Below are positions 14,521 to 64,000 of a stretch of 64,000 nucleotides of DNA, one piece after another. The stretch covers positions 118,105 to 182,104 of the forward strand of contig CAWDUZ010000004.1 of the NCBI GenBank assembly GCA_963805515.1, written 5' to 3'. The notes beneath the pieces are model-generated. The model was not told the origin of the DNA. It did no database searches and saw only the letters and a list, made by a program, of their open reading frames with translations. The position numbers were made by a program, and so were the translations under genes. Numbering within the stretch: the first letter of the stretch is position 1; each line of letters opens with the position of its first letter. The DNA comes from an uncultured Chloroflexia bacterium (GTDB taxonomy: Bacteria > Chloroflexota > Anaerolineae > Anaerolineales > Villigracilaceae).

Positions 14521-15060
14521 GTCTTCGGGCCACAAAGCGCCCTTTCCCAAAACATTGTAGTACTAATACAAGGGCGTACAAGGACGTACAAACTTTGTCC
14601 TTGACCATAGAACACATGTTCCCTATAATGATCGAAGGGAACTACCATGCTTACAACTCACTTTGCCTCCGCTCATCCGACGTTGGACCCCCGACTTTTG
14701 ACGTTACACCGTCTATCCATCTCTCATCTGTACATACCAAGGTGTTCTTCGCAGAGCGCGCTTTACTCGAAAAGAAGCGCATTGTTCCCCGGAGGCGTTC
14801 TCCAGCCGAGGCCAGGTGCAGGACGTTCTTCCCTGCAAAGGTGTCTCCTGCATCTCTCTCATACCAGAATGTTCTTTGCGGAGCACGCTTTACTCGACTA
14901 GGAACGCCATTGATCCTCATTGTTTTTCTAGAGAGCAAGGTGGTAAAAAGCCGGTTTTCGACCCCCATATATGGCCGGCCTACCCGTGCGCAGCGTCCCA
15001 ATGTCCATATATGGCCTCGCATTGACCCTCCGAAAGAGCCTCAAAATCGGCATTTTTCAA
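14521..15060 (-). repeat. Dispersed repeat element, copy A (inverted relative to copy C at 54380-55030). Its end module is 2x CGYCCTTGTR 10-mers, the TAGTACTA palindrome and TACAAT; the body shares ccatatatggc palindromes
   Basis: The revcomp of 14521-14590 is near-identical to 54961-55030. 14880-15010 is about 90% identical to the revcomp of 54440-54560. The embedded ORFs share the peptide IDPHCFSREQGGKKPVFDPHIWPAY. Confidence 0.6.
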
Positions 15061-21894: not shown

Positions 21895-21990
21895 AAGGCG
21901 AACGTGCGCCCTTGTACGTCCTTGTGTGCCCTTGTGTTAGTACTACAATGTTTTGTAGCAGGGCCGCTTTGTGGCACGTAGATCACGCTT
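21895..21990 (+). repeat. Partial copy B of the dispersed repeat's end module (3x CGYCCTTGTR 10-mers + TAGTACTA palindrome + TACAAT)
   Basis: aacgtgcgcccttgtacgtccttgtgtgcccttgtgttagtactacaatgttttgtagcagggccgctttgtggc aligns to 54955-55028 and to the revcomp of 14521-14590. Confidence 0.5.
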
Positions 21991-22148
21991 AATAAGGGGA
22001 AGAGAGACAGGAAACAAGAAAGAGGAATAGGGGTGGGCGGCGGGGATTGATTTTTCATCGGAGGGTCAGCATAATGGATAAGTGGCGGCGATCTTCGCAC
22101 CTGCGGCAACCATTGGCGCAAATCCTGCAATTCGATCGGAAACCTTGA

Positions 22149-22700
22149 ATGACACTAGAGCGGACGCTGGAAAGTATCGAGGCCAATATCAATGCGGGCG
22201 ATCTCGGAAAGGCGAGAGACCGACTGCATGGGCTGCTTTCCAGCTACCCGGATAACCTGGAACTGCGAAAACGACTGGGCGCGGTCTACTGGCGGCTTCA
22301 GATGCCGGAGATGGCCGGACGATATTGGTATTTGGAAGAAGCGAAGGACTTAGACATGACTGCCGCCTGCAGGCGCTTCGAAGTGCAATTCGGGAATGAT
22401 CCGGCTTACCTGCTGTTCGCGCTCAAGTTCAGGGGCGAAGTTGAAGCTATCAAGGATACGTTCGCGGGCCAACTGCTGTTGGATCTCGATAAACGGGCAC
22501 GGCGGAAGCACTCCTGGTATGAGGACTACCGAAAGCGCGGCGCCGGAAAGTATCGCCAGTATAAGTATGAGGCCGGGAAGCACAAGACCCGGGATCTGAT
22601 CATCAAGTGGGGCTGCATCACCGCCGCAGTCCTAATGGTTTTGGTCTTCCTTGCCGGGTTGATCGAGGGTATAGGGAGTCTGATTGGGAGGATAAGGTAA
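22149..22700 (+). CDS. Hypothetical protein with C-terminal TM anchor (183 aa), paralog of 23972-24519
   Basis: MTLERTLESIEANINAGDLGKARDRLHGLLSSYPDNLELRKRLGAVYWRL... with C-terminal TM GCITAAVLMVLVFLAGLIEGIG; no known domain. Confidence 0.5.
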   Translation: MTLERTLESIEANINAGDLGKARDRLHGLLSSYPDNLELRKRLGAVYWRLQMPEMAGRYWYLEEAKDLDMTAACRRFEVQFGNDPAYLLFALKFRGEVEAIKDTFAGQLLLDLDKRARRKHSWYEDYRKRGAGKYRQYKYEAGKHKTRDLIIKWGCITAAVLMVLVFLAGLIEGIGSLIGRIR

Positions 22701-22815
22701 TGGGCAGTCCGCGCGCGCTGAGGGCTGGGAATCCGGCAAAGGATGAAGCAGTTCAAGGCGGGAAGTTTTAGGATAGAGCCTGCTTGGAGTTCGAATCTCT
22801 AATCCCCAGCCTACA

Positions 22816-22849
22816 GAATACCGCCTTGTGCGGTATTCTTGTTTGTTTT
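22816..22849 (+). terminator. Rho-independent terminator (gaataccgc-cttgt-gcggtattc + TTGTTTGTTTT)
   Basis: Perfect 9-bp stem, 5-nt loop and a T-rich tract, downstream of ORF 22149-22700. Confidence 0.6.
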
Positions 22850-22898
22850 GCGCATCAATGGAGGTACGGAAGCCAGGGACCTATTCCACGGTTGCGAT

Positions 22899-23159
22899 TC
22901 AGATCCTCTTTCGCTTGAAATAGACAGCATGGGAACCCTGGCCTGTGATACCCGTTGCGACCATTTCCCATCCTTCATTGCCAAGTTTTGCAATTCTTAT
23001 AGCGACTTCATTCCTCTGCGAGCTCTCTTCAACCGCGGGCAGGCTCTCGACCTTCTCGCCCTCGGCTGTGAAGAAGATCAGCCTTGCCCGGCGCATGATT
23101 CCGCCGCCGAGCAAATCCTCAAATCTGCAATATTCCCATTTTTCCTGGCCTGTTGTCAT
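22899..23159 (-). CDS. DUF4177 domain small protein (86 aa)
   Basis: KWEYCRFEDLL...LGNEGWEMVATG...SHAVYFKRKRI fits the DUF4177 pattern (WEYK...GWELV...fKR). Confidence 0.55.
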   Translation of the reverse strand: MTTGQEKWEYCRFEDLLGGGIMRRARLIFFTAEGEKVESLPAVEESSQRNEVAIRIAKLGNEGWEMVATGITGQGSHAVYFKRKRI

Positions 23160-23179
23160 TTCACACTCCTCTTATCTCG

Positions 23180-23425: not shown

Positions 23426-23971
23426 TGGCTGGAGAGAGCGCCGATGTCAGAAGTGGACAACCACAAGCGCCCAATTCTATACCCACGATATGTCCGAGAC
23501 ACCCTCGGGGTCATCTTATGGGCATCCATACTTGTTAAGGCCCTCGCTCTTCGACCTCGACCAGTACTTTGTCCAATTCGCTAGCTCCAAATATCGCTTG
23601 GATTCTGAACTTTCGCATCTTTGCCCTGCTCGCTGGTGATCGCGGTCTTGTGGGTTGTATTGGGAAATCGGCGTTTTCTACCGAACTTCCTATATGTCGT
23701 TGGATACCCGCTGGTCGTGCTTTTTCTTTAAAATTGCCACTGTTTATTGCGACGTCGATGGGTGATGTTCCTGATTTTACTTCCATCGATTTTTGATACT
23801 CTCGTCAGCTTTAACAACTTTTGTCCTTTATGCGACAATTATTGTATCTGCCGCCGTGGTGTTTTTCTCCAGACAGCCAATTATGTTGGTTGCGGGCATG
23901 GTGGGCTTTGGTTGCCGTTAATCTTCAGCGTGTCTGCCTTTGGCTCAATGCAATTCGATCGGAAACCTTGA

Positions 23972-24519
23972 ATGACACTAGAGCGGACGCTGGAAAGTAT
24001 CGAGGCCAATATCAATGCGGGCGATCTCGGAAAGGCGAGAGACCGACTGCATGGGCTGCTTTCCAGCTACCCGGATACCCTGGACTCGCGAAAACGACTG
24101 GGCGCGGTGTACTGGCGGCTCCAGATGCCGGAGATGGCCGGTCGATATTGGTATTTGGAAGAAGTGAAGGACCTAGACATGACTGCCGCCTGCAGGCGCT
24201 TTGAAGCGAAATTCGGCGATGATCCGGCTTACCTGCTGTTGCTCAAGTTCAGGGCGAAGTTGAAGCTATCAAGGATACGTTCGCGGGCCAACTGCTGTTG
24301 GATCTCGATGAACGGGCACGGCGGAAGCACTCCTGGTATGGGGACTACCGAAAGCGCGGCGCCGGAAAGTATCGCCAGTATAAGTATGAGGCCGAGAAGC
24401 ACAAGACCCGGGATCGGATCATCAAGTGGGGCTGCATCACCGCTGCGGTCCTAACAGTTTTGGTGTTCCTTGCCGGGTTGATCGAGGGTATAGGGAGCCT
24501 GATCGGGAGGATCAGATAA
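23972..24519 (+). CDS. Paralog of 22149-22700 (frameshifted near 24250 in this assembly)
   Basis: N-terminal 90 aa nearly identical to copy 1. The C-terminal ...RKHSWYGDYRKRGAGKYRQYKYEAEKHKTRD...TM continues in ORF 24298-24519. Confidence 0.45.
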
Positions 24520-24633
24520 TGGGCAGTCCGCGCGCGCTGGGGCTGGGAATCCGGCAAACGATGAAGCAGTTCAAGGCGGGAAGTTTTAGGATAGAGCCTG
24601 CTTGGAGTTCGAATCTCTAATCCCCAGCCTATA

Positions 24634-24667
24634 GAATACCGCCTTGTGCGGTATTCTTGTTTGTTTT
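24634..24667 (+). terminator. Rho-independent terminator (copy of 22816-22849)
   Basis: Identical hairpin and T-tract. Confidence 0.6.
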
Positions 24668-24716
24668 GCGCATCAATGGAGGTACGAAAGCCAGGGATCT
24701 ATTCCACGGTTGCGAT

Positions 24717-24974
24717 TCAGATCCTCTTTCGCTTGAAATAGACAGCATGAGAGCCCTGGCCAGTGATACCCGTTGCGACCATTTCCCAGCCTTCATTGCC
24801 AAGTTTTGCAATCCTTATGGCGACTTCATTCCTCTGCGAGCTCTCTTCCACCGCGGGCAGGCTCTCGACCTTCTCGCCCTCGGCTGTGAAGAAGATCAGC
24901 TTTGCCGCAATGAATCCGCCGCCGAGCAAATCCTCAAATCTGCAATACTCCCATTTTTCCTGGCCTGTTGTCAT
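24717..24974 (-). CDS. DUF4177 domain small protein, paralog of 22899-23159
   Basis: MTTGQEKWEYCRFEDLLGGG...VYFKRKRI; an alternative upstream start exists at 25016. Confidence 0.55.
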   Translation of the reverse strand: MTTGQEKWEYCRFEDLLGGGFIAAKLIFFTAEGEKVESLPAVEESSQRNEVAIRIAKLGNEGWEMVATGITGQGSHAVYFKRKRI

Positions 24975-25114
24975 TTTATGTTTCTCTCCTATCTTCACAT
25001 GATCCGGTTTCGGCAATGAGGATAGCCCCTGCGTGATACTGGGCGTTGGAATGACCGGATATCTTTGTAACTACTAACGCTGCGGCACAAGTTGGTGATG
25101 GCTTATTTCAACCG

Positions 25115-54379: not shown

Positions 54380-55030
54380 ATAACCAGGTGGAGCATCGGC
54401 AATTCGTATCGCCGATGTGCGCAGGCCTTTGGAGGTTCAATGGAGGCCATATATGCGACATTGGGACGCGGCGTACGGAGTAGGCCTGCCATATATGGGG
54501 GTCGAAAACCGGCTTTTTACCACCTTGCTCTCTAGAAAAACAATGAGGTTCAATGGCGCTTTTGATGACTTGAAGCGCTCCATTGATTAAGCCGACTTTG
54601 ACCTTTTGGAGGGCATGGCGGACATAAAGGACATTAAAGGGAAGAGCAGGCGCACCTCCGGGGTCAATGGGAGGGAAGAGTGAATAGAGAATCGAGAATG
54701 GATCATGGGAAGACAATCGGTGATAGGCATGGTGTGTTGCTGAGAGTGGCGAGTAGAGCATGCGCCGCAAAGAAGACTTTGGTAGGCAAAGCGCGGTTGG
54801 TGGGAAGAGCAGTAGACACGAAGACAGGTAAACACGGCCAGAGGCAAGCATGGGTTTTCTCTACGGTGAGTGTATCACCAAAATACATAATGGCGGCGGG
54901 ATGCCGCCTTACGTGATCATTATATAGAACGGGTGTTCTGGCGTCAAGGAGAAAGTTTGTGCGCCCGTGTACGCCCTTGTATTAGTACTACAATGTTTTG
55001 TCGAAGGGCCGCTTTTTGGCCCGCAGATAC
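54380..55030 (+). repeat. Dispersed repeat element copy C (inverted partner of copy A at 14521-15060), ending in a promoter-like 10-mer iteron/palindrome module oriented toward the RHS locus
   Basis: See copy A. The end module is gtgcgcccgtgtacgcccttgtattagtactacaatgttttg, i.e. TTGTAC-N16-TACAAT. Confidence 0.6.
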
Positions 55031-55076: not shown

Positions 55077-55364
55077 TGATTTGTCTGATTGGAATGAGGA
55101 CTATGATCGGAGGGTGGCAAATCATAGTGTTCATTCAACCATTGTATTCAGGGTTCCAGAGGAGGCGTGATGGCCGGCAGCTGACTGATCTGTGTGATGA
55201 AATGAGGATGAGGGAGGCTGGCAAATCATGGTATTCATATAATCAGTCTAATCACGGTTCCAGACGAAGCGCGGAGGCGTCTGAACCATGATTTATGTGA
55301 TTGAATGAGAACTATGATGGAAAGTGGGCGGTAACTATGGTTCCTGCCAGCCTTCGAAGCGGCG
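55077..55364. repeat. Three tandem degenerate repeats of about 100-110 bp (TGATYTRTSTGATKRAATGAGRA...GGCAAATCAT...GGTTCC...GGCG)
   Basis: Repeat units start at 55077, 55187 and 55289. They lie between repeat element C and the GxxExxY/RHS locus. No coding support. Confidence 0.6.
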
Positions 55365-55442: not shown

Positions 55443-55800
55443 ATGGAGGTGCATAAGACACTGGAGAATGGCTTTCAGGAAGTCATTTATCAGCGCGCAC
55501 TGGAAATCGAAACGTCGAATCAAGCCCTGGCATTCAGCCGTGAACACGAAATGGAGATCTTCAACAAGGGTGTCAAGATCGGAAACCGCCGTGTGGATTT
55601 CTTTGTTGAGCAGAAGGTAATGGTCGAGATCAAGGCTGTCGTTCAATTAGAGGATGTTCATTTGGCACAAGCCAATCAACTATCTGGAAGCTTATGCGGC
55701 TGGAGGTCGGCTTGCTTCTCAACTTTGGCGCTCGGAGTTTACAATTCAAGCGTGTGATGAGGCCCGAAGGGCTCATGCAAGAACACGGGCAAATCATGGT
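55443..55800 (+). CDS. GxxExxY family protein (PD-(D/E)XK-like), with 2 apparent frameshifts
   Basis: ...ENGFQEVIYQRALEIE (GxxExxY), ...RRVDFFVEQKVMVEIKAV.... The family C-terminus (INYLEAY...GLLLNFGARSLQFKRV) is in shifted frames. Confidence 0.55.
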
Positions 55801-55829
55801 CGATTCATAGAGATCATTCCGATCATGAG

Positions 55830-57121
55830 TTCAAAACAGAATGTGACCAGCGTGAGCGCCACGGGTGGAAGCGACGGCTTGTATAGTGAAACCTACGGCT
55901 ATAACCACACCAGCTGGTAATTTGCAAACCAAGGGCAGCCGCACACTGAGCTATGGAACGGATGGGCTTGGAGCGCCTGCGCTGAGCGGTGACAATCAAG
56001 AGTCCAGCCCACGCAAAATTGCGCATGCGCGATCTCTCGATCAGCCGGCACCGGTAATACATACAGCTACGACTGCAACGGCAACATGACCAGCGGACTG
56101 CCAATGGCCAGACGTTCACGATGGGCTACGATGCTGAGAACCGACGGGTGAGCGTCTCGGGTGCAGTCACGGCAAGCTTCGTATATGACGGCGAGGGCAA
56201 CCGAGTGAAATACCACGATCGGCACATTGACCACGACGTTCGTGGGCAATTATTATGAGGTAACGGGAACACAGGTCAACAAGTACTATTACGCTGGCGG
56301 CTCACGCGTGGCGATGAACGCCGGAGGGACGTTGTATTATTTGCTCTCCGACCAACTGGGAAGCACGAGCTTGACAGTGAAGGCCTCAGACAGTAGCACC
56401 TCTGAGATGCGCTACACAGCCTGGGGAGAGACTCGCTATACCTCCGGCACGACGCCTACCAATTACACCTACACCGGCCAATATAGCAACGTCGGCGATT
56501 TCGGGCTGATGTTCTATAATGCCAGGTGGTACGACCCTTATCTTTAACCGCTGGACCCAGCCCGATAGCATTGTACCCAATATATATGATCCACAGGCTT
56601 GGGACAGGTTCGCCTATGTCGATAATAATCCTGTCCGATATAATGACCCATCGGGGCATTGTCTTGAGGACGCTTGTATACTGGAGTTGGTGGTCATCAC
56701 GGCTGCAGTTGGCATGTACGCGTATGTAGCTAGCCCGCAATTTAGAGATGCGGCGAACGCGTTCGGAGCCAATCTAGCGAACTTCATGGACAAAGCGTTT
56801 GCCGTAGGCGAGAAAAAGCCACTGACAGAAGATGAACAAGACAAGGTAGATCACTTAGAAAAAGACTCGGAAGGCTTCTTGAGGAAGCACCCTGACCTGG
56901 AGGAGGAAGCGCAGAAGAAAGCAAGAGGAGAGACACTTGAAAAAGGTGACCATCCAGGAGAAGCGGAGCAATGGGTACAAGGACTAGAAAACGATATAGC
57001 GCATCTTCAAGATGCTCGGCGATCACGCGATAAAGAATCTCAAGCCGCAATAGATCGGGCAATTGAACGTGGGCAACGCTGGATTGATGAGATAAATCGG
57101 AAGCTATACGGAAAAGAATGA
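55830..57121 (+). CDS. Orphan RHS-repeat 3' fragment ending in the RHS junction motif and a C-terminal polymorphic-toxin domain (CT1, about 150 aa of unknown function). The repeat region has multiple frame breaks
   Basis: YD/RHS repeats (...YSYDCNGNMTSG..., ...QTFTMGYDAENRRVSVSGAVTASFVYDGEGNRVK..., ...TFVGNYYEVTGTQVNKYYYAGGSRVAMN...LYYLLSDQLGSTS...). Junction GDFGLMFYNARWYDPYLNRWTQPDSIVP...DRFAYVDNNPVRYNDPSGHC, then a divergent CT. Confidence 0.65.
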
Positions 57122-57672
57122 ACAACATCGACAAATTGAAATTGCGGTTTCAAGAACTCAGGGCAAGATCCTTGCAAGAGAATGCCAAGATTCACGGCAC
57201 GGGTCTTTGGGAATCCTGGCATGAACTAGCCGACGCGCAATATGAACCAGCCAAGGAGTTCTTTATCGAACGACTGGATGATGCACGTTCGGCTTGGAGG
57301 ACGGAGAGTATTAGCTTGCTTGGTTTTCACTACAAATTAGACGATCAAGTTCTGGAGAAGATTCGTGCTTTGTTGCTCCATGACACCGATTCAGGCGTGA
57401 GAATTGTGGCTGCGTCGGTCTTAGGGAGTCAAGGCCGGTATCCAGAGAAAGCACTTCTTCATGCTTTGGATCATGATTCCAATAACCTGGTGAGGGAGTT
57501 TGCCTTCTCTGCTCTTCTAGAGCTTGCAACCGTACCATATCTGGTGAAAAGAAAAGAGCTAAGGAGAGTCAAATCCGAAGAAACAAGCGCAAGTCTTGAA
57601 CAGGTGAAACGAGTGCTTCTTGAACAAAACCTGTTCTCCCAAGCAGCTTTGTTGGACGAAGCGGGAGGTTAA
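57118..57672 (+). CDS. Putative cognate immunity protein for CT1 (alpha-helical, HEAT-like)
   Basis: ORF starts in an ATGA overlap with the CT1 stop, which is the typical toxin-immunity arrangement; no known domain. Confidence 0.45.
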   Translation: MNNIDKLKLRFQELRARSLQENAKIHGTGLWESWHELADAQYEPAKEFFIERLDDARSAWRTESISLLGFHYKLDDQVLEKIRALLLHDTDSGVRIVAASVLGSQGRYPEKALLHALDHDSNNLVREFAFSALLELATVPYLVKRKELRRVKSEETSASLEQVKRVLLEQNLFSQAALLDEAGG

Positions 57673-57729
57673 CATAATCGGATGTTAGCTGTATGCCGCG
57701 CCGCTACAAAATTCCGTGCCTGCCGCCTG

Positions 57730-59274
57730 TTACGGAGGCGAACATTCTTGCACCGAGCCAAACAGTTCGCGCAATTGGCCGGCGATGCTCAGTCTGTCTG
57801 AGTAACTGAGTGTGGGTTGCGCAAGTTGCTTGACCCATCCCAGCACTTGCGTTCGTTCCTGCACCTTAACAACTTCATCGCTTTTCTCTTGATTTGCCTC
57901 CAGCGCAATCTCGAGTCTCTGCTCGATGCGCTGCATGGCCGCGAAGTAATCGTCTGCCACGGTCTGGTCATGCGCCCGGGCATAGATCATGGTGGTGTTG
58001 AGCTTCTTGTGCCCCAGGAAGCGCTGGATGGAGGTGATGCGGCAACCGGCATTCAGCAGCTGCGTGGCACAGGTATGCCGCAGCCGGTGGGGATAGACCT
58101 TCACACCCACCCGCTCGCCAGCATATTTCAAGTGATCCCGGATGATATCCTTTCGCAGGGGCGCATTGCGGTACAGGAAAACGTGATCGCCGCTGCCACC
58201 GCCACGCACTGCCAGGTACTCCTGCAGGGCCTGGATAGCGGTCTCCGCCAGGTACACGGTGCGGTCTACCCGCCCCTTGCCATCCCGCACGCTGAGCCGC
58301 TTGTGACCCAAATCCAGGTCTTCCAGGCGTAGTTCTTCGAGTTCGCCCAGCCGCAAGCCGCCCTGCCAAAGCAAATAGAAGGCCGCCCGGTCCAGCAGGG
58401 CAATACGGCGGTGGCTGGCCAAGACTGCCTCCCGCACAACTCGTTCGAACTCGTCCCGCAGCTTCTTCACCTGCTCATCGGTGAGGTACTTCGGCAGCGG
58501 CTCGGGGATTTTGAGGCCTGGAATGCGCAAGAGCGAGTTGGGCACGGTATAGCCTTCTTCCTGCAGGAAGAGCAGGAAGCTGTGCAAGCAGCGCAACTCG
58601 GCGTTCAGGGTCTGTGCGGATATCCCAGCTTGCAGGCGCATGTCCAGGTAGTCCAGAACGAACTGCCGCTTCACATCCGCCAACTGTTGCACGCCGCGCT
58701 CGGCGCACAGGAAACGCCACACCCGGCCGTGCTTGTTCCAAAAGCCCCGGAGGTTCTGCTCCAGCCGGGCAGAGCGCCAGTTACGCTGCAACACCTTTTC
58801 ATATCGCTCCAGTTCATTCACCAGCCAGGCAGGCAATCCTTGCGTGTGAGCGGGCACATCGAACGGCCGGACGTGGCGCTGCTCCCCCAGCCCGCGTTCG
58901 AGACGGAGATAGCGACGCAGCATGAGGAGAGCCAGCCGGCAGTTCTTGATCCAACCCGCGCTCACTCCTTTGGCCTGCACGTACTGGAGCGCACAATCCA
59001 AATCTGTATCTGGATCAAGCTGGTGATAGGGCTTGAGAGTCAGAGCGAAGACATGCCCGGCCATCTTGAGGTGATGCAACCGGATAACCAACTCACTGAT
59101 CCCGCCGCTGGACAACCAAGTGCGATAGCGTTCCAGAAACTCGAGGTTTTCTTGTGGCCAGTACTTTGTTGGCAGGGGGCGCGGCGTATCGGGCGGCAGA
59201 CGCTTATTGCGCATGTAGTGCAAGCCGAGGTCATAGCTTTCGGCCAATGTGCGGGCCGCATGGATGGGGCACAT
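57730..59274 (-). CDS. Tyrosine recombinase (phage-integrase family), large form of about 514 aa with a duplicated N-terminal SAM-like/core-binding region
   Basis: Catalytic domain ...HRLRHTCATQLLNAGCRITSIQRFLGHKKLNTTMIYARAHDQ (R..HxxR...Y). The ATG at 59272-59274 is adjacent to the upstream recombinase stop. Confidence 0.8.
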   Translation of the reverse strand: MCPIHAARTLAESYDLGLHYMRNKRLPPDTPRPLPTKYWPQENLEFLERYRTWLSSGGISELVIRLHHLKMAGHVFALTLKPYHQLDPDTDLDCALQYVQAKGVSAGWIKNCRLALLMLRRYLRLERGLGEQRHVRPFDVPAHTQGLPAWLVNELERYEKVLQRNWRSARLEQNLRGFWNKHGRVWRFLCAERGVQQLADVKRQFVLDYLDMRLQAGISAQTLNAELRCLHSFLLFLQEEGYTVPNSLLRIPGLKIPEPLPKYLTDEQVKKLRDEFERVVREAVLASHRRIALLDRAAFYLLWQGGLRLGELEELRLEDLDLGHKRLSVRDGKGRVDRTVYLAETAIQALQEYLAVRGGGSGDHVFLYRNAPLRKDIIRDHLKYAGERVGVKVYPHRLRHTCATQLLNAGCRITSIQRFLGHKKLNTTMIYARAHDQTVADDYFAAMQRIEQRLEIALEANQEKSDEVVKVQERTQVLGWVKQLAQPTLSYSDRLSIAGQLRELFGSVQECSPP

Positions 59275-59275
59275 G

Positions 59276-60154
59276 TCACATCGACCCCGTGCGGGATGCC
59301 CAGCCTTCGATCTTCCCGCAGGCGGCATAGTAATCCGCACACACCTGGCTGTCATTGGCCATGACATAGGTCTGCGTGCTCTCGATCCAGCGATGGCCCA
59401 GCAGCTTCTGGATGGAGGTGACGGGCACATCGGCGTTGAGCAGGTCGTTGGCGAAGGTATGGCGCAGGCGATGGGCGCTGAGGACTAATCCGGCCTGTTG
59501 CCGATAGCGCACGAGCCGTTTGTGGATGGCGGTGGTGGAGAGACCGTCTTGCAAGTAGCTCAGGAAGACGAACTCGCTGGCAACCTTCGGGCGCTCCAGC
59601 AGGTATGCCCGCAAGGCGCGTTCGGCTTGCGGCGAGAGGTACACGGCGCGCTCTCGGGAGCCCTTGCCCGGCACCACGATGCGCGGGAAGGTCTCAGCCA
59701 GATAGAGGTCTGCCAGTTGCAGGCTGGCGACTTCCGCAATGCGCAGCCCGCCACGCAGCATGAGCAGGAACATGGCGCGGTCGCGCCTATCGGTGATGAC
59801 GGCAAAGAAGGCCTGGAGGTCCTGTTCCGGCACCGGCCGCGGCAAACGCTGCTGTTCACGCAGCAGGTGGCGCCTGGGATGCACCGGGCAGGCCAGCGTA
59901 TCATCCTCCACCGAGAGAAAGGCATAGAATGCCACGACAGACGCCAGGCGGCGGTTGATGGTGGAGGCCTGGAAGCCCCTCTCGCTCTGCACGGCCACGA
60001 AGCGGTCTATGTCATGAAACGAGATCCTGTCGGGCGGACGGTCCCCCACGACCTGGGCGAAGAAGCGCAGATCATAGCCATAGTCCTTCCAGGTGCGCGC
60101 CCCGGGCGAACGGCGGCGGGTCCAATTGACGAAGCGTTCGATTTCGGCTAGCAT
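59276..60154 (-). CDS. Tyrosine recombinase (XerC/XerD-like, about 293 aa), immediately upstream of and co-oriented with the large recombinase
   Basis: ...AHRLRHTFANDLLNADVPVTSIQKLLGHRWIESTQTYVMAN...; GGAGG SD before MLAEIERF. Confidence 0.8.
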   Translation of the reverse strand: MLAEIERFVNWTRRRSPGARTWKDYGYDLRFFAQVVGDRPPDRISFHDIDRFVAVQSERGFQASTINRRLASVVAFYAFLSVEDDTLACPVHPRRHLLREQQRLPRPVPEQDLQAFFAVITDRRDRAMFLLMLRGGLRIAEVASLQLADLYLAETFPRIVVPGKGSRERAVYLSPQAERALRAYLLERPKVASEFVFLSYLQDGLSTTAIHKRLVRYRQQAGLVLSAHRLRHTFANDLLNADVPVTSIQKLLGHRWIESTQTYVMANDSQVCADYYAACGKIEGWASRTGSM

Positions 60155-60255
60155 GAAGAAGCCTCCTACGAGCAGAATTTTGGACAGGTATCCGCATTCT
60201 ACTCGCAGGAGGCTCTCACACCTCACCGGGAAGAAACGTGGTTAAAGATAAGTGA

Positions 60256-60864
60256 CCCGCCCTGGGACGCTTTGCCCAGGCGGATAGCGTCGTGCCGGAC
60301 GGGGTGCAGGGCTATGATCGGTACGCGTATGTAAACAATGATCCGATTGGGCGCGTAGACCCCACGGGACACTATGGCCAATGTCGAGACGGGGACAGCA
60401 ACTACAAATGCAACCATATCATCCCGCACCAGATGCAGCTCGATCAGCAGCAGGCGCTGACGTTAGCACTCCAACACCAGATCTTATGGGCCTGGCAAAT
60501 GAGCCGGATAATGGAATGAGGGTTAAGCTGCCAAGGGCTGTCCTGCTTCGGCCTGGGCGGCATCCCTGGAGGCGGGTTAGGCGGGAATGTCCGCGATGGT
60601 ACATTGGCTTTCGGCCAGTTCCAAAGCTTAGGAGGCGGACCCAATTGGAAAAAGATTGCGACGGGCGCAGCTCTTGTCTTGGCAACTGATGTCTCTGTGG
60701 TCATTGTGGGTGTTGGCGTTTACATGTCATGGGAAATCGTTGTGCCTATTCTCGGCGAGGCGGCGATAACCGAGTACCCGTGGGTGGTAGTATTTGGCAG
60801 TACAGTCATCGCTCTGAACTACAATGGCGTGCAGATGATGGTGGAGGGTATTAAAGGACAATAA
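60256..60864 (+). CDS. RHS C-terminal tip cassette CT2. It begins exactly at the right half of the RHS junction motif and runs into a Gly-rich/TM toxin-like domain interrupted by one in-frame TGA
   Basis: PALGRFAQADSVVPDGVQGYDRYAYVNNDPIGRVDPTGHY...QMSRIME*GLSCQGLSCFGLGGIPGGGLGGNV...IATGAALVLATDVSVVIVGVGVYM... all in one frame with a TGA at 60517-60519. No upstream RHS body (a stop sits at 60253). Confidence 0.45.
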
Positions 60865-60927
60865 TGGCGTAATGCCAGTCTGGACCTATATTTTCCTACA
60901 TTTTTCTGGGAACTCGAGGAGGCTCCA

Positions 60928-61221
60928 ATGAAAGACCCACTCATGTTGATGATAATCATATTCAATTTTATCATCCTAGCACCGATTAGCGTAATTCTGC
61001 GGTCATGGCGAGAACGGGGCACATTAACCGAAAAGAAATTCGCCATAACGTTGACAGCATATTTCAGCTTTTCATTTGTGACTCCTCTAATACCTGTAAT
61101 GATTGGCTATCCCCAAACAACCGCATTGGTCGATGCAGGTGCACTGCTGGTACTCTGGTGCATCGGCTATCCGTGCCTGCGTTGGCTTTATAGACAGTTC
61201 GACTCGCCGAGGCGTCGGTGA
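60928..61221 (+). CDS. Small 3-TM membrane protein, candidate immunity protein (paralog of 61385-61654)
   Basis: 97 aa; C-terminus ...CLRWLYRQFDSP resembles ...ARWIYRQFEPHK in the next ORF; AT-richer DNA. Confidence 0.4.
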   Translation: MKDPLMLMIIIFNFIILAPISVILRSWRERGTLTEKKFAITLTAYFSFSFVTPLIPVMIGYPQTTALVDAGALLVLWCIGYPCLRWLYRQFDSPRRR

Positions 61222-61384
61222 TTACCGCAATTGAACCGACGGTCCGGAGATTGAATCAGGAATTCAAAAAATTGGCCGTGAAGGCGATGAAGCATGGCGT
61301 TCTTCTCGCAATTTACTCCTGTGCAAAGCTATCGTCAACTTACGGAATCGACAGCTTGAAGTTTACTAGAGTCAGGATGCAGAA

Positions 61385-61654
61385 ATGAAGCTCTTTGGAT
61401 TCGTATGTGCAATTCTCTTTTGGCTAGGTGTGATCCGGATGCAGATTCGGTGGCGTACGCAGGGCAAGCTCAACGAGGCGAGCTTCGCCCTTTTCCAAGT
61501 TGCCGCTTTGGGGCTTCTAATCTTGGCCGGATTTCTTCTGTTCTCAAATACATGGCAAGTAATGGTAGGAGGGATTGTGCTCTCAACATTGTCGATGACT
61601 TTTGGACTCCCAGTGGCTCGATGGATCTACAGGCAGTTCGAGCCGCACAAGTGA
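61385..61654 (+). CDS. Small 3-TM membrane protein, candidate immunity protein (paralog of 60928-61221)
   Basis: 89 aa; paralogous C-terminal motif. Confidence 0.4.
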   Translation: MKLFGFVCAILFWLGVIRMQIRWRTQGKLNEASFALFQVAALGLLILAGFLLFSNTWQVMVGGIVLSTLSMTFGLPVARWIYRQFEPHK

Positions 61655-61715
61655 TCACACATTCTGTGGGTATTGGTGACGTCTTTTGACCTATTCCAGT
61701 CGGTGCAACGCACCG

Positions 61716-61795
61716 CGCCATCGCCGACTTCGGGCTGATATTCTATAATGCCAGGCGGATAGCGAAGGGACAGCAGCGACCGGTGGAGGTTTAGT
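61716..61795 (+). other. Isolated left half of the RHS junction (AIADFGLIFYNAR), followed at the 14-bp core by unrelated sequence and a stop
   Basis: gacttcgggctgatattctataatgccagg is 28/30 identical at DNA level to the CT1 junction at 56492-56521. It diverges exactly after ...aatgccagg. Confidence 0.5.
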
Positions 61796-61945
61796 ACATC
61801 AAAGGTTCTACCCGCTCCTGAAGGTTCTGCCTGCAAGGTGTTCGAAGGCCTAAATCCATGCGCAGAATAAGAGGGGTTGCTTTCCGGGATGCAATTTGAT
61901 TACGGTTTCAGGGAGGCGGGGGTTCGAGCGCTATAATAGCCGCCG

Positions 61946-62395
61946 ATGAACTACTCGGCGATCACGGAACATCTCTTTGTAGGCACCAGCCCGCGGCGAA
62001 GTGACTTTGAAGTGCTGCGGAAGATGGGCGTAGGGCTGGTGATCAATATGCGCTTCATGCCGGGGCCGCGTCCAGCGAGAGGCGAGCCGGGGCTGCGCTA
62101 CGTCTGGCTGCACACCTTCGACAATCCGCTGCTGCCGATCCCCTTGCGGGCGCTGATGCAAGGGGTGCAACTGGCTTTGGAGGAGATCAAGGCCGGGGGG
62201 AAGGTGTACACCCATTGCGCGGCGGGCCGGCACCGAAGCGTGGCGATGGCCGCGGCGATCCTGATCGCACAGGGTTTGGCGCCGGAGGGGGCGATGAGAC
62301 TGATCAAGGAGCAGCGACCGATTGCCGACCCGCAGGCGTACCATATCCGCAGGAGGATCGAGTTGTTTGCGCGGAAGTGGAGCGCGCAGCAATGA
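61946..62395 (+). CDS. Dual-specificity/tyrosine protein phosphatase (CX5R)
   Basis: VYTHCAAGRHRSVAMAAAIL (HCxxGxxRS P-loop). Confidence 0.7.
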   Translation: MNYSAITEHLFVGTSPRRSDFEVLRKMGVGLVINMRFMPGPRPARGEPGLRYVWLHTFDNPLLPIPLRALMQGVQLALEEIKAGGKVYTHCAAGRHRSVAMAAAILIAQGLAPEGAMRLIKEQRPIADPQAYHIRRRIELFARKWSAQQ

Positions 62396-62399
62396 GGGG

Positions 62400-62900
62400 A
62401 AAAAGTCATTATGGCTCGTAGTGCCCGGACTAGTGCCCGGCCCAAATCAAAAACGATTTGGTCCGGGCACTAAAATTTCCGAAAATAAATAGGGCTGGGT
62501 AAGAGCACCCAGCCCTATTTATTTTCGGAGGGCTTGCACATTAGCACGTGGGCAGAACTGAATTACAGGAAGAAGAAAACAGGGCCGATGGATTTTCGGA
62601 GGGCTTGCAGATTGGGAAAACGATTGATGCAAGGAGATTTTGGCAGGCTTAGCGTTCCTGTTCGCATATAGTAAAACGTCCCGCAGGTTTGCGCATCAAA
62701 CAAGGCGCTGGGAGACTGTTTCTTAAATGGTGACTACTCGCAGAGACCCTACCCCGACCCTCCCCTAAAGGGGAGGGAGACAAGCCGAATTTCGAGATAT
62801 GGTGGGAAAACACCACCATATCTCGAAATTCGGAAGCAAGCACAACATGTGAGCACGCAGCAGAGGACGTAAGAAACAGTCTGAGAGGAACCTGCGGGAC
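62400..62900. repeat. Cluster of nested palindromic (REP/MITE-like) elements between convergent genes
   Basis: gtgcccggcccaaatc/gatttggtccgggcac; ccgaaaataaatagggctgggt/acccagccctatttattttcgg; 2x TTTTCGGAGGGCTTGCA. Then a roughly 215-bp element with TIRs acgtcccgcagg (62686) / cctgcgggacg (62882) enclosing the hairpins ccctcccc-taaa-ggggaggg and ccgaatttcgagatatggtgg/ccaccatatctcgaaattcgg. Confidence 0.65.
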
Positions 62901-62901
62901 G

Positions 62902-63691
62902 AGGCTTTTTATCAGCGGTTCTGGTCGGCGTACTTCCACCAGAGGTAGGTGGCGAGCACGCCGAGCGAGGCCGGTAAGAACCACGATCCAGTAGCTGACA
63001 GAGGGTAGAGGGCTTTTGCTCTCCGCATATAGGACCGGCACAGCCCAAGGGAAATATTCGCCCCAGCCGAGGATCTGAGCCAGGTTGGTCGCGATCATCG
63101 CCAGGCCGGCCATGCCGACCGGCAAGAGAACCCCGCGGCCGATGCTGGCAAAGAAAGCAAAGGGCAGGATGACAGGAATGACCAGGCAGCAGGTGAGCGC
63201 CACAAGGGCGCTGCCATGCAGAAGGACCGCCATGGAGCTGCCGGGGAGCTTGAGGACTACGCCCATGACCAGGCCGGCGATGAAGATCACGGCGGCGAGG
63301 GCGGCGGACCAGAGGGCCGTAACAATGAACTTTGCCAGCACGATGCTGGAACGTTGAACCGGCACCGCCAGCATATCCTTCAGAGTGCCGTCGGCAAATT
63401 CGCGGCCGAAGACCCAGCTCACGATCAGGATGAATAAGATGACCCCGCCGGCGCCGATGATCTGCCCATACAATGCCAGGTAGGCCGTCCAGTCTGTAGC
63501 GGCATAAGCCACCAGGTTGGCTTTGGCGCTGACCAGGCCAAGCTTCTGCGAAATCTCCGGATTTTTGGAGACGAAAAGCAGGAAGGCAAACCCCAACGGC
63601 AAAAAGAGGGAACCGAGCGCCGTCCAGAGGGGCATCAAGGAACGGACAGCTTTTCGAAGCTCCACCCAGACCATATCCGACAGGTTAGTCA
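62902..63691 (-). CDS. ABC-2 type transporter permease (C-terminal frame change near 62985)
   Basis: MTNLSDMVWVELRKAVRSLMPLW... with 6 TM segments. The likely true C-terminus ...LATYLWWKYADQNR* is in an adjacent frame, ending at 62902-62904. Confidence 0.6.
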
Positions 63692-64000
63692 TTCTTGACT
63701 CTCGCTTTCCATGCCTACAAGCCTGAGGAAGTATTGCTCCAACTGCTCTTCCTCCACCATCAACTGAGTCGGCGGGTGCCGGCCCGGACAAGCAGGCTGT
63801 TCACATCGTCGGGGTGCTCGACACAGTCAGCAGCGTTAAACTCCAGGCTCCCATCCGGGAGGATGCCGGCGGGCTGACCGGCGGTCGCCAAGGCACGCTG
63901 CGCCGACTCGACGTCTCGCACACGCACAAGGAGGCGCCTGCGGCGATTGCGCTCCAACTCTTCCATGTTCAACTCCTGGAGCAAATGGCCCTGGTGAATG
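63688..64000 (-). CDS. ABC transporter ATP-binding protein, C-terminal part (extends beyond window end)
   Basis: ...GILPDGSLEFNAADCVEHPDDVNSLLVRAG...QLMVEEEQLEQYFLRLVGMESESQE*; its stop overlaps the permease start (ATGA). Confidence 0.45.

What the first reader, a model, noticed from the sequence alone, without database searches (positions are those of the whole stretch)
55830..61800. Orphan RHS toxin-tip/immunity cassettes arranged around a tandem pair of tyrosine recombinases
Three separate pieces of the RHS C-terminal junction occur within 6 kb, all on the plus strand. (i) A complete junction GDFGLMFYNAR|WYDPYLNRWTQPDS...DPSGHC plus CT1 and an ATGA-coupled immunity ORF (56.2-57.7 kb). (ii) A cassette (60256-) that starts exactly at the right half of the junction (..LGRFAQADSVVPDG..YDRYAYVNNDPIGRVDPTGH) with no RHS body upstream. 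(iii) An isolated left half (DFGLIFYNAR, 61716-61750). Between (i) and (ii) sit two co-oriented tyrosine recombinases, a small (293 aa) and a large (514 aa, duplicated N-terminal SAM-like region) form reminiscent of Tn554 TnpA/TnpB pairs. RHS CT diversification is classically ascribed to homologous recombination with orphan tips. Here the arrangement instead suggests site-specific, recombinase-driven capture or exchange of toxin-tip cassettes at the YNAR|WYDP junction, an integron-like logic for polymorphic toxins that I do not know to be described. No full-length rhs gene is present in the window; the locus begins with a GxxExxY gene and a 700-bp RHS-repeat remnant.
Basis: partly seen in the sequence, partly recalled or inferred. 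Interest (0 to 1): 0.85.

Follow-up and report, generated by a model that had tools for sequence, protein, structure and literature searches.

The report
Mobile element that swaps RHS toxin tips
The two recombinase genes belong to a 3.7-kb mobile element that carries its own toxin tip and immunity gene and inserts, in reading frame, into the conserved junction of RHS toxin genes, which gives a site-specific mechanism for how these toxins exchange their tips.

Summary
RHS junction pieces lie at 56.5, 60.26 and 61.72 kb (+ strand). Two tyrosine recombinase genes (514 and about 292 aa, minus strand) lie between the first two.

The link between recombinases and junction is site-specific and recurrent, but it is not an integron-like platform. 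The mobile unit is window 56538-60257 (3,720 bp): R-arm, toxin tip CT1, HEAT-repeat immunity gene, RecL, RecS, L-arm and a 6-bp spacer. The arms are perfect inverted repeats (TTATCTT(T)AACC / GGTTAA(A)GATAA).

- The R-arm encodes the first tip residues (P)YLN and is fused in frame to RHS ...YNARWYD.
- Piece (ii) is the displaced former tip. Joining the flanks rebuilds WYDPALGRFAQADS in frame.
- The architecture recurs in about 90 units, mostly from Anaerolineae/Chloroflexota MAGs.
- Arms are perfectly complementary in 38 of 42 complete units and co-vary.
- 45 of 82 L-arms are followed by a native RHS right half in one fixed register, 8 by another R-arm, none inverted.
- Tips read through from ORFs of up to 3,323 codons, and cargo toxins are highly diverse.
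- One identical element has different flanks within one sample series.

The closest known class is the Tn554/SE-type two-recombinase transposons. I found no description of this element. Mobility is inferred, not observed.

The parts
55849..56531 (+). RHS core remnant (target gene, degenerate). It matches residues 166-244 and 800-922 of a full RHS shell, has several frameshifts in this assembly, and ends ...GDFGLMFYNARWY.
   Evidence: L001 carries a different, shorter RHS piece here.
56521..56549 (+). attL: target left arm GCCAGGTGGTA (56521-56531), target-type 6-bp spacer CGACCC (56532-56537, Asp-Pro codons), element R-arm TTATCTTTAACC (56538-56549, codes (P)YLN).
   Evidence: The same structure is seen in 51 distinct attL sequences.
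56538..60257 (.). The whole mobile unit, 3,720 bp, from the R-arm to the L-arm plus its 6-bp spacer.
   Evidence: Contig L094 (4,194 nt) begins 2 nt before an R-arm and ends exactly after L-arm+GTGATC.
56539..57121 (+). Element-borne toxin tip: YL(N)RWTQPDS...DPSGHC, a predicted TM helix, then a helical CT1 of unknown family. One extra T at 56543-56545 breaks the frame in this assembly only.
   Evidence: no Pfam hit; L001 is in frame at the junction.
57118..57672 (+). Cognate immunity candidate, 184 aa, HEAT repeats. Its start overlaps the CT1 stop (ATGA).
   Evidence: PF13646, E=4.4e-7.
57730..59274 (-). RecL, large Xer-like tyrosine recombinase, 514 aa. It has an extra all-helical N-terminal region of about 250 aa, and R308, K333, H396, R399, H422 and Y431 are invariant in the family.
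59276..60154 (-). RecS, ordinary Xer-like tyrosine recombinase, about 292 aa. R138, K164, H228, R231, H254 and Y263 are conserved. Its stop lies 1 nt before the RecL start.
60240..60268 (+). attR: element L-arm GGTTAAAGATAA (60240-60251), element-type spacer GTGACC (60252-60257, with a TGA in frame with the next tip), target right arm CGCCCTGGGAC (60258-60268).
   Evidence: The same structure is seen in 49 distinct attR sequences.
60258..60864 (+). It has an in-frame stop at 60517-60519 and then a glycine- and TM-rich continuation to 60864.
   Evidence: The reconstructed attB reads GLMFYNARWYDPALGRFAQADSVVPD in frame.
60928..61221 (+). Small membrane protein (97 aa), immunity candidate for CT2. 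It is a paralogue of the next ORF; both end RW(L/I)YRQF(D/E).
   Evidence: No Pfam hit.
61385..61654 (+). Second small membrane protein (89 aa), a paralogous immunity candidate.
61721..61758 (+). It has no arm sequences and shares the 14-nt CCAGGCGGATAGCG with 60277-60290.

Best explanation
Window 56538-60257 is one copy of a family of small (3.7-4.8 kb) site-specific integrative elements. They are found mainly in Anaerolineae (Chloroflexota).

Each element carries four things: (a) a promoterless RHS toxin tip that begins at the element's own end, where the R-arm TTATCTTAACC encodes (P)YLN; (b) one to three immunity genes; (c) an antisense operon of an ordinary (RecS) and a large (RecL) Xer-like tyrosine recombinase; (d) the L-arm GGTTAAGATAA plus a 6-bp spacer, usually GTGATC.

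Joined head to tail, the ends form a dif-like 11-6-11 palindrome (the attP-like site).

Inferred mechanism:
1. The element circularises.
2. RecS and RecL recombine the palindrome with the conserved RHS junction ..GCN CGN TGG TA|Y GAY CC|N xLGRF.
3. The apparent crossover is at the boundary between the spacer and the right arm. attL therefore keeps the target's Asp-Pro codons and reads straight into the element's tip. The old tip is pushed downstream behind the L-arm and a spacer that holds an in-frame TGA.
4. Repeated insertions at the same place build the orphan tip/immunity array, with the last one in being the one expressed. Excision would pop a unit and re-fuse the next tip.

In this window the target RHS gene has since collapsed to a 0.7-kb remnant, so the element is stranded. 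Both recombinase genes and both arms are intact.

What is shown: the anatomy, its recurrence, the in-frame fusions, the arm co-variation and the multiple flanks. What is inferred: circularisation, the strand-exchange chemistry, and which protein binds what.
For: Terminal repeats in the window:
- 12-nt perfect inverted repeats lie at 56538-56549 and 60240-60251.

Recurrence of the gene pair and the L-arm:
- RecS and RecL are linked in essentially all related loci. These come from a genome-contig scan (78 loci, nearly all Anaerolineae/Chloroflexota) and from metagenome loci.
- The L-arm lies 77-143 nt upstream of the RecS start in 28 of 30 genome-derived copies.

What follows the L-arm:
- 82 L-arms linked to RecS have at least 60 nt beyond the spacer. 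Of these, 45 are followed by a native RHS right half (xLGRFxxxDS..NRYAY..DPSGH), always starting at the third base of the Pro codon. Another 8 are followed by an R-arm, none by an inverted left half, and 29 by other sequence.
- The reconstructed attB is in frame in every locus checked, by hand. For the window it reads GLMFYNARWYDPALGRFAQADS.
- Uninterrupted junctions of this type exist in related bacteria, for example P0276 ..FYNARWYDPALGRFAQADT.

Unit structure:
- In 42 non-redundant complete units, 38 have perfectly complementary arms.
- The variant arms GGGTAATATAA and TTATATTACCC always occur together within a unit, but are mixed across unit junctions.
- 0 of 2,000 permutations match the observed complementarity.
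- attL spacers are variable target codons (at least 15 types). The attR spacer is nearly constant.

Function:
- 92 R-arm+tip sites were found. The upstream in-frame ORF is 3,323 codons in L112, at least 2,301 in L037, at least 1,818 in L033 and 990 in L003.
- In L003 a SpvB/RHS/YD-shell gene reads through attL into the tip.

Cargo:
- 37 toxin domains fall into 28 unrelated clusters.
- Pfam finds CDI_toxin_EC869_like, Peptidase_M23 and an alpha/beta hydrolase among them.
- The recombinases stay 55-77% identical throughout.

Serial arrays:
- L003 holds 2.5 units whose RecL copies are 67-91% identical, so they are independent insertions and not duplications.

Mobility:
- Contigs break exactly at the boundaries (L094, L027, L016, L012, L099).
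- One element (recombinase region 100% identical over 2.4 kb, cargo 99.8-100%) has three different left flanks and two different right flanks in one sample series.
Against: - No circular form, empty site or transposition event was observed. The reconstructed attB of this window was not found in metagenome contigs, and no exact empty allele was found for the multi-flank element.
- Some of the flank combinations could be assembly chimeras across a repeat. That would still require two or more copies.
- attB has almost no similarity to the element's arms and shares no overlap sequence with them. This is unusual for simple Xer-like recombinases and leaves target recognition unexplained.
- 29 of 82 L-arms are not followed by recognisable RHS sequence. 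These are decayed arrays or other targets.
- In the window the RHS body is gone, so the element cannot be delivering a toxin here.
- The window and L001 have the same element position, so there is no polymorphism for the element itself.
- These are noisy long-read assemblies, so single-base features are unreliable.
Confidence: 0.8

Rival explanations
1. Integron-like platform. The recombinase pair is a resident platform next to the RHS locus. It captures and reshuffles recombinase-less toxin-tip cassettes at the junction. Cassette (ii), bounded by the 14-nt repeat CCAGGCGGATAGCG (60277 and 61745), would be the mobile piece.
For: - Arrays of tips exist in which only the first is fused to the RHS body.
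- A 14-nt direct repeat flanks cassette (ii).
- The joined ends form a palindromic site that loosely recalls attC.
Against: - The recombinase genes are repeated with each unit, and the inverted arms enclose them together with one tip.
- Arm variants co-vary within [tip..recombinases] units, not across junctions.
- No arm sequence lies at 61.7 kb or anywhere else in the window.
- The right halves next to L-arms are native, diverse RHS sequences without an R-arm.
- Scores against the integron-integrase model are far below the cut-off.
Confidence: 0.06
2. Domesticated tip-switch. The units are no longer horizontally mobile. The host uses them as a resident stack, and the recombinases only delete (pop) leading units to switch the expressed toxin. 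This would be a deletion-type phase or antigenic-variation system.
For: - Serial junctions are perfect attP-like sites in direct orientation with attL, so excision of leading units is the simplest reaction.
- Elements sit almost only in RHS loci of one class.
Against: - The same identical element occurs with different flanks.
- Contigs break at the element ends.
- Units within one array are only 67-91% identical and carry different arm types, which points to independent acquisitions.
- Native right arms at attR are very diverse, which implies many independent insertion events.
Confidence: 0.1
3. Coincidence. An unrelated integrase pair (prophage, ICE or RIT-like element) happens to have landed in an orphan RHS array that was built by ordinary homologous recombination.
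For: - Orphan arrays with left-half remnants, such as piece (iii) and units in L011, L041, L042 and L048, look like classical homologous-recombination products.
- The window and L001 differ by a replaced segment inside the RHS remnant.
Against: - The same junction register recurs in 45 native right halves, 8 serial junctions and 51 distinct attL sequences across unrelated samples.
- The element is only 3.7 kb and carries no phage or conjugation genes.
- The L-arm lies in non-coding DNA, so coding constraint cannot explain its perfect complementarity to the R-arm.
Confidence: 0.02

Closest known systems
[quoted passage not shown]
   Same: - An operon of an ordinary plus a large RHRY tyrosine recombinase sits at one end.
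- Short terminal inverted repeats are present, and the joined ends carry a 6-bp spacer.
- Target specificity is strong.
- There are no mobilisation genes and no target duplication.
- The 6 bp at the two borders differ: one comes from the target and one is carried by the element. This implies recombination across a non-homologous spacer.
   Different: - There is no third or fourth accessory gene (TnpC/Srap, Tfp).
- The arms are perfect 11-nt repeats.
- The carried 6 bp is nearly constant (GTGATC) and stays at the recombinase-proximal end. It is not a changing footprint of the previous site.
- The hosts are Chloroflexota.
- The target lies inside a coding junction, and the element supplies an in-frame replacement C-terminus.
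- Sequence homology to TnpA/B or IntA/B was not tested.
RHS C-terminal displacement and orphan tip arrays (Jackson et al. 2009, cited in PMC6421346; Zhang et al. 2012, PMC3482391)
   Same: - A new CT-immunity module replaces the expressed tip at the conserved core junction.
- Old tips and immunity genes accumulate downstream.
- The CT domains are hypervariable.
   Different: The classical view invokes homologous recombination through retained core sequence. Here each incoming module brings its own recombinases and a defined 28-bp site, and the joint falls at one fixed nucleotide position.
Integrons, and recombinase-associated AID (rAID) immunity arrays of Bacteroidales (PMC12247911)
   Same: - A tyrosine recombinase is linked to an array of promoterless conflict-system cassettes.
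- Expression depends on position.
- The array acts as a memory of immunity genes.
   Different: Integrons and rAID have a single resident recombinase and cassettes without recombinases. The integron integrase signature is absent here. In this family each cassette is an autonomous element, and expression comes from translational fusion to a host gene rather than from a promoter.
XerC/XerD-dif recombination and the IMEX elements that exploit it
   Same: - Both proteins score best against XerC, XerD and XerA models.
- The site is 11-6-11, as in dif.
- Two different recombinases act as a pair.
- A single-crossover outcome is compatible with exchange of one strand pair followed by replication, as for CTX phage.
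   Different: - The recombinases are element-encoded and are not the host Xer pair. They score 128-166 bits against cut-offs of 220-335.
- The two arms are identical rather than XerC- and XerD-specific.
- The target is not dif.
Site-specific swapping of protein C-termini by inversion (Mu Gin / P1 Cin tail fibres, the Rci shufflon). This comparison is from my own knowledge.
   Same: The recombination site lies inside a coding sequence, so alternative C-terminal modules are joined in frame to a constant N-terminal part.
   Different: Those systems invert resident segments. Here no inverted configuration was found (0 of 82), and the modules are integrative and horizontally mobile.

Membership tests
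Tn554 / SE / GInt class of multi-tyrosine-recombinase transposons | [quoted passage not shown] | tested here: met
   RecS is about 292 aa and RecL is 514 aa, 1 nt apart. PF00589 matches both. Catalytic residues are invariant.
Tn554 / SE / GInt class of multi-tyrosine-recombinase transposons | Terminal inverted repeats that form a joint with a 6-bp spacer | tested here: met
   The arms are 11 nt and perfect in 38 of 42 units. Serial joints read GGTTAAGATAA-GTGATC-TTATCTTAACC.
Tn554 / SE / GInt class of multi-tyrosine-recombinase transposons | Target-site specificity without target duplication | tested here: met
   The position in the RHS Asp-Pro codons is fixed. The flanks rejoin without any duplicated bases.
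Tn554 / SE / GInt class of multi-tyrosine-recombinase transposons | 6-bp footprint: the 6 bp next to the recombinase-proximal end is copied to the distal end of the next site | tested here: not met
   The proximal 6 bp is nearly constant (GTGATC and close variants), and the distal 6 bp is the target's own Asp-Pro codons. One non-junction copy (L082) shows the opposite placement.
Tn554 / SE / GInt class of multi-tyrosine-recombinase transposons | Accessory protein(s) TnpC/Srap (and Tfp) | tested here: not met
   No conserved third gene is present. Only 57 nt and about 85 nt of non-coding DNA flank the recombinase operon in the window, and the rest of the element is tip plus immunity.
Tn554 / SE / GInt class of multi-tyrosine-recombinase transposons | Sequence homology to TnpA/TnpB or IntA/IntB beyond the generic catalytic domain | not tested
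   No reference sequence was reachable, and pSEA1 is not in the collections. The best plasmid matches are below 31% identity and are generic integrases.
Tn554 / SE / GInt class of multi-tyrosine-recombinase transposons | Circular transposition intermediate | not testable with these tools
   This needs reads or PCR. The only indirect evidence is contigs ending at the arm boundaries.
Integron | IntI-type integrase | tested here: not met
   TIGR02249 scores 77 and 65 bits against a cut-off of 265. PRK15417 scores 56 and 44 bits against 435.
Integron | One resident integrase with attI, and cassettes that lack a recombinase and end in attC | tested here: not met
   Each unit has its own recombinase pair, and the arms enclose the recombinases.
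Recombinase-in-trio (RIT) element | Three consecutive tyrosine recombinase genes between long inverted repeats | tested here: not met
   Only two recombinase genes are present in all units. True trios (L076-L081, Acidobacteriota) are only 29-33% identical.
Host XerC/XerD | Equivalog-level match to XerC or XerD | tested here: not met
   The XerC model scores 148 and 166 bits against a cut-off of 335. The XerD model scores 128 and 145 bits against 330.
RHS polymorphic toxin locus with orphan tips | RHS core ending in the YNARxYDP-xLGRF..DPxGH junction, followed by a variable CT and an immunity gene, with displaced tips downstream | tested here: met
   for the window. Full-length examples are in L003 and L112. 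Recognised toxin domains occur in the cargo.
Shufflon / invertible C-terminal segments | Alternative orientations of the segment between the inverted sites | tested here: not met
   0 of 82 L-arms face an RHS left half, and all 42 complete units have the same orientation.

The most novel reading that the evidence does not exclude
Anaerolineae carry a family of autonomous 'plug-in toxin' transposons. A two-recombinase, Tn554/SE-like machinery recombines a dif-like 28-bp palindrome with the conserved WYDP codons of RHS genes, across a non-homologous 6-bp spacer. Each insertion translationally fuses a new toxin to the host's delivery shell and displaces the old tip. RHS orphan arrays in these bacteria would then be stacks of successive site-specific insertions that can be pushed and popped, giving a dedicated molecular mechanism for RHS C-terminal displacement. 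A secondary layer may exist: an IS110-family element targets the same core site.
Probability: 0.6. Interest if true: 0.88.

Novelty: new variant of a known kind. Interest (0 to 1): 0.8.

Why it matters
How RHS and other polymorphic toxins acquire new C-terminal tips has been put down to homologous recombination with orphan cassettes. No dedicated machinery has been identified.

This family would be a concrete, testable site-specific mechanism. Two small recombinases and a 28-bp site insert a toxin-immunity module in frame into a conserved coding junction.

- It turns toxin tips into self-mobile genes.
- It explains tip/immunity arrays as insertion stacks.
- It extends the poorly understood Tn554/SE class of two-recombinase transposons to Chloroflexota, with an unusually clean set of natural attL, attR and attP-like sequences for mechanistic work.
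- A recombinase pair that makes precise in-frame C-terminal replacements at a short conserved motif could also be useful as a tool.

Tried and rejected
- **GATC register.** I first aligned attL and attR on the shared GATC/GACC. This made every displaced tip 1 nt out of frame. The 11-6-11 register removes the discrepancy in all loci, so the GATC register was dropped.
- **Supposed mini-elements.** Sites preceded by ..CCCTTGACTCCTAATAGCAGGTC looked like recombinase-less derivatives. Alignment showed the 3' end of an IS110-family transposase gene inserted at the R-arm.
- **Internal site.** GGTTAACATAAT at 57667, between the immunity gene and RecL, might have split cargo from recombinases. It is absent at that place in L002 and L003, so I treat it as chance.
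- **Empty sites.**
  - The exact reconstructed attB of the window gave 0 hits in metagenome contigs.
  - A protein query across the reconstructed junction of the multi-flank element gave at most 75% identity. It did show that uninterrupted native junctions are common.
- **Reference sequences.** pSEA1 (SE elements) is not in the collections, so homology to IntA/IntB and TnpA/TnpB remains untested.
- **RecL structure.**
  - The AlphaFold model is confident only in the helical N-terminal half (mean pLDDT 65).
  - Foldseek confirms only a generic Xer/integrase fold.
- **Inversion.** The inverted configuration was looked for and not found.
- **Chance matches.** 22 of the 80 listed metagenome hits to the 17-mer (120 stretches matched in all) had no RecS beside them and were set aside as chance or decayed.

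Full report
**1. What is in the window**

The plus strand between 55.8 and 61.8 kb carries three RHS junction pieces.

- **Piece (i).** A frameshifted RHS remnant (55849-56544) ends ...GDFGLMFYNARWYDPYL. It continues one frame over as NRWTQPDS...DPSGHC plus CT1 to 57121. A HEAT-repeat ORF (57118-57672) overlaps the CT1 stop.
- **Piece (ii).** From 60258 the sequence reads (P)ALGRFAQADS..YDRYAYVNNDPIGRVDPTGH. It is preceded by TGA, with no RHS body upstream. Two paralogous small membrane ORFs follow.
- **Piece (iii).** 61721-61758 is 89% identical to the left half of (i) and then loses the junction.

Two tyrosine recombinase genes lie between (i) and (ii), on the minus strand. RecL is 57730-59274 (514 aa) and RecS is 59276-60154 (about 292 aa). 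A tblastn with a full RHS protein finds RHS-like sequence nowhere else in the window. It also shows that the remnant is an internally collapsed shell.

**2. Origin and quality of the sequence**

RecL is identical to a protein from ENA assembly ERZ25039533, contig_20642 (1.2 Mb). That contig (L001) is 97-99% identical to the window, with many small indels. The two are therefore separate noisy long-read assemblies of close relatives.

L001 lacks the extra T that breaks the frame at junction (i), and also lacks the matching extra A in the other arm. I therefore do not trust single-base frameshifts here.

The two assemblies also differ by a replaced segment, window 55506-56254. There L001 carries a toxin 3' end, an immunity-like ORF and a shorter RHS piece. 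The element itself and pieces (ii) and (iii) are the same in both.

**3. The key anatomical finding**

The sequence TTATCTT(T)AACC lies inside junction (i) at 56538-56549 and encodes (P)YLN. It is the perfect inverted repeat of GGTTAA(A)GATAA at 60240-60251. That second copy sits in non-coding DNA about 85 nt upstream of the RecS start and directly before piece (ii).

The sites read as 11-6-11:
- attL = GCCAGGTGGTA | CGACCC | R-arm
- attR = L-arm | GTGACC | CGCCCTGGGAC

Removing 56538-60257 joins the flanks into GLMFYNARWYDPALGRFAQADSVVPD, a normal in-frame RHS junction.

**4. Recurrence elsewhere**

RecL belongs to a compact family.
- The 120 best-scoring clusters at 90% identity are 62-77% identical to it, most of them on 2-6 kb contigs.
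- The RecL-specific N-terminal 250 aa has only 166 representatives among 1.84 billion 50% clusters.
- A scan of one genome per species returned 78 loci, nearly all Anaerolineae/Chloroflexota MAGs.
- RecS is always directly upstream of RecL.

The L-arm lies 77-143 nt upstream of RecS in 28 of 30 copies with enough flank. A metagenome scan with L-arm plus spacer added further loci, of which 22 of the 80 listed were discarded as lacking RecS.

Taken together, 82 RecS-linked L-arms have at least 60 nt beyond the spacer:
- 45 are followed by a native RHS right half (xLGRFxxxD(S/T)..NRYAY..DPSGH), always beginning at the third base of the Pro codon;
- 8 are followed by another R-arm, giving the perfect palindrome GGTTAAGATAA-GTGATC-TTATCTTAACC;
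- none is followed by an inverted left half;
- 29 are followed by other or decayed sequence.

On the other side, the R-arm lies 1.1-2.5 kb beyond the RecL stop. It opens a tip ORF that begins Y(L/I)(N/T)(R/H/Q)(F/W/M)(T/S)QPDS.

**5. The unit is [R-arm ... L-arm]**

Among 42 non-redundant complete units, 38 have perfectly complementary arms. The variant pair GGGTAATATAA / TTATATTACCC always occurs together within a unit (L003 unit 2, L011, L029, L030), whereas junctions between units mix arm types. None of 2,000 permutations reaches the observed complementarity.

The L-arm is non-coding, so coding constraint cannot explain this. The spacer at attL varies with the target's codons (at least 15 types). 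The spacer at attR is almost constant.

**6. Function of the tips**

Of 92 R-arm+tip sites, many terminate long open reading frames: 3,323 codons upstream in L112, at least 2,301 in L037, at least 1,818 in L033 and 990 in L003. In L003 a SpvB/RHS/YD-shell gene reads through attL into the element's tip. It is followed by 2.5 tandem units whose RecL copies are only 67-91% identical, so they are independent insertions.

Cargo is hypervariable. The 37 CT domains fall into 28 unrelated clusters. They include CDI_toxin_EC869-like, Peptidase_M23 and alpha/beta-hydrolase domains. The window's CT1 and CT2 have no Pfam match.

**7. Evidence for mobility (indirect)**

Several short-read contigs end exactly at the inferred boundaries.
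- L094 (4,194 nt) is CC|TTATCTTAACC ... GGTTAAGATAAGTGATC|.
- L027 and L016 end right after the spacer.
- L012, L099, L095 and L070 start 1-5 nt before the R-arm.

A break with no read-through is what a repeat with two or more different neighbours produces.

More directly, one element appears with different flanks in one sample series. Its recombinase region is 100% identical over 2.4 kb and its cargo is 99.8-100% identical.
- Left flanks:
  - an RHS left half with spacer TGACAG (L086);
  - an RHS left half with spacer CGATAG (L088);
  - the end of a DUF6531 ORF with spacer GTGATC.
- Right flanks:
  - GTGATC plus a native right half SLGRFTSPDT.. (L087);
  - GGGAAT plus an ORF with 18 RHS repeats (Pfam).

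Some combinations may be assembly chimeras. At least two different neighbourhoods on each side are still required.

Exact empty sites were not found. Uninterrupted junctions identical in protein sequence to the window's reconstructed attB core do exist in relatives, for example P0276 FYNARWYDPALGRFAQADT.

**8. Mechanism (inferred)**

Both proteins are simple Xer-like tyrosine recombinases.
- Their best models are XerC, XerD and XerA, at 128-166 bits against cut-offs of 220-335.
- The integron-integrase model scores 65-77 bits against 265.
- Plasmid matches are below 31% identity.
- Fold search gives XerA, Xer, Tn1549 Int and XerH.
- The catalytic R-K-HxxR-H-Y residues are conserved in both.

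attL has the target's left arm and spacer joined to the element's right arm. attR has the element's left arm and spacer joined to the target's right arm. The apparent crossover is therefore a single point at the boundary between spacer and right arm. attB and the palindrome share no overlap sequence.

That excludes a classical reaction with a homologous overlap. It points to one of two alternatives:
- recombination across a heterologous 6-bp spacer, as described for Tn554, SEs and Tn916-type elements, with selection keeping the in-frame product; or
- exchange of one strand pair followed by replication.

The non-junction copy in L082 has the two spacers the other way round. This fits the first alternative but is a single case.

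How attB is recognised is unknown. RecL's extra helical N-terminal half is a candidate for this role, but that is speculation.

**9. Comparison with what is known**

The closest class is the group of tyrosine-recombinase transposons with one ordinary and one large recombinase: Tn554-related elements, SEs and GInts. PMC10214605 describes terminal inverted repeats, a 6-bp spacer in the circular joint, target specificity and different 6-bp sequences at the two borders.

This family differs in four ways:
- it lacks TnpC/Srap/Tfp-type accessory genes;
- it keeps a constant spacer at the recombinase-proximal end;
- it lives in Chloroflexota;
- it uses a coding junction as its target, so that it delivers an in-frame C-terminus.

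It realises RHS 'C-terminal displacement' (Jackson 2009, cited in PMC6421346) by site-specific rather than homologous recombination. Zhang et al. 2012 noted only that polyimmunity loci often lie next to XerC/D genes. rAID arrays of Bacteroidales have one recombinase and immunity genes only, and their biogenesis is described as unresolved.

Nine full-text searches found no description of a recombinase-borne RHS tip element. The held library lacks most subscription journals, so prior description cannot be fully excluded.

**10. Verdict**

In the window the element is intact but stranded beside a collapsed RHS gene. Piece (ii) is the displaced tip with its immunity genes, and piece (iii) is an ordinary decayed orphan junction.

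I rate the finding as a new variant of a known kind of mobile element, with high interest. It offers a testable mechanism for a long-standing question in polymorphic-toxin evolution.

Noticed in passing
L036, L047, L048 (about 6835 in RHS orientation) and L060: The 3' end of an IS110-family transposase gene abuts the R-arm at exactly the same nucleotide in four unrelated MAG contigs (..CCCTTGACTCCTAATAGCAGGTC|TTATCTTAACC). This looks like an insertion sequence that targets the element's core site, reminiscent of IS1111-attC elements in integrons.
   Followed up: partly
L082-L091 (JGI 3300008007/8009/9004 and ENA ERZ272933xx series): One identical element occurs with several left and right flanks. 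One copy lies between a DUF6531 ORF and an ORF with 18 RHS repeats, so it sits inside the 5' part of an RHS gene rather than at the tip junction. In that copy the element-type spacer GTGATC is at the R-arm side and GGGAAT is at the L-arm side, the reverse of the usual placement.
   Followed up: partly
L049 (whole contig, 2,329 nt) and L054 725-754: A distant small+large recombinase pair (about 38% identical) sits alone on a contig with a 141-nt terminal overlap, which may be a circle or a tandem repeat. Another distant pair has a 13-4-13 palindrome (TTCGTGTACACTA TGTC TAGTGTACACGAA) upstream of its small recombinase. The wider family may share the palindromic-site design with other targets.
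   Followed up: no
window 55506-56254 compared with L001: Two 97-99% identical assemblies differ by a replaced segment inside the RHS remnant. The window has the rest of a PD-(D/E)XK (GxxExxY) gene plus a longer frameshifted RHS piece. L001 has a toxin 3' end, an immunity-like ORF and a short RHS piece. The surrounding orphan array is therefore still being rearranged.
   Followed up: partly
window 22126-23161 and 23949-24976: A 1-kb direct repeat at 95% identity, unrelated to the finding.
   Followed up: no
window 54423-54558 / 14905-15041; 54915-55027 / 14522-14633 / 21912-21989; tandem 66-nt pair 55109-55174 / 55213-55278: Short dispersed repeats (85-93% identity, some inverted) flank the left side of the locus and recur twice elsewhere in the window. 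They look like MITE-type or intergenic repeat elements.
   Followed up: no
window 62431-62472, 62478-62529 and 62785-62833: Three strong hairpins with arms of 18, 23 and 21 nt (two of them perfect). Two lie between the DSPc-type phosphatase gene (61946-62395) and the ABC-2 permease ORF, and the third lies within the listed 62649-63791 ORF.
   Followed up: no
window 57667-57678: GGTTAACATAAT (2 mismatches to the L-arm) sits exactly between the immunity-gene stop and the RecL stop. It is not conserved at that place in L002 or L003, so it is probably chance. It would be worth rechecking if cargo exchange between elements is studied.
   Followed up: partly
window 60517-60519: A single in-frame TGA separates the short CT2 ORF from a glycine- and TM-rich continuation that runs to 60864. 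CT2 may be one longer membrane-active toxin interrupted by an assembly error or a real nonsense mutation.
   Followed up: no
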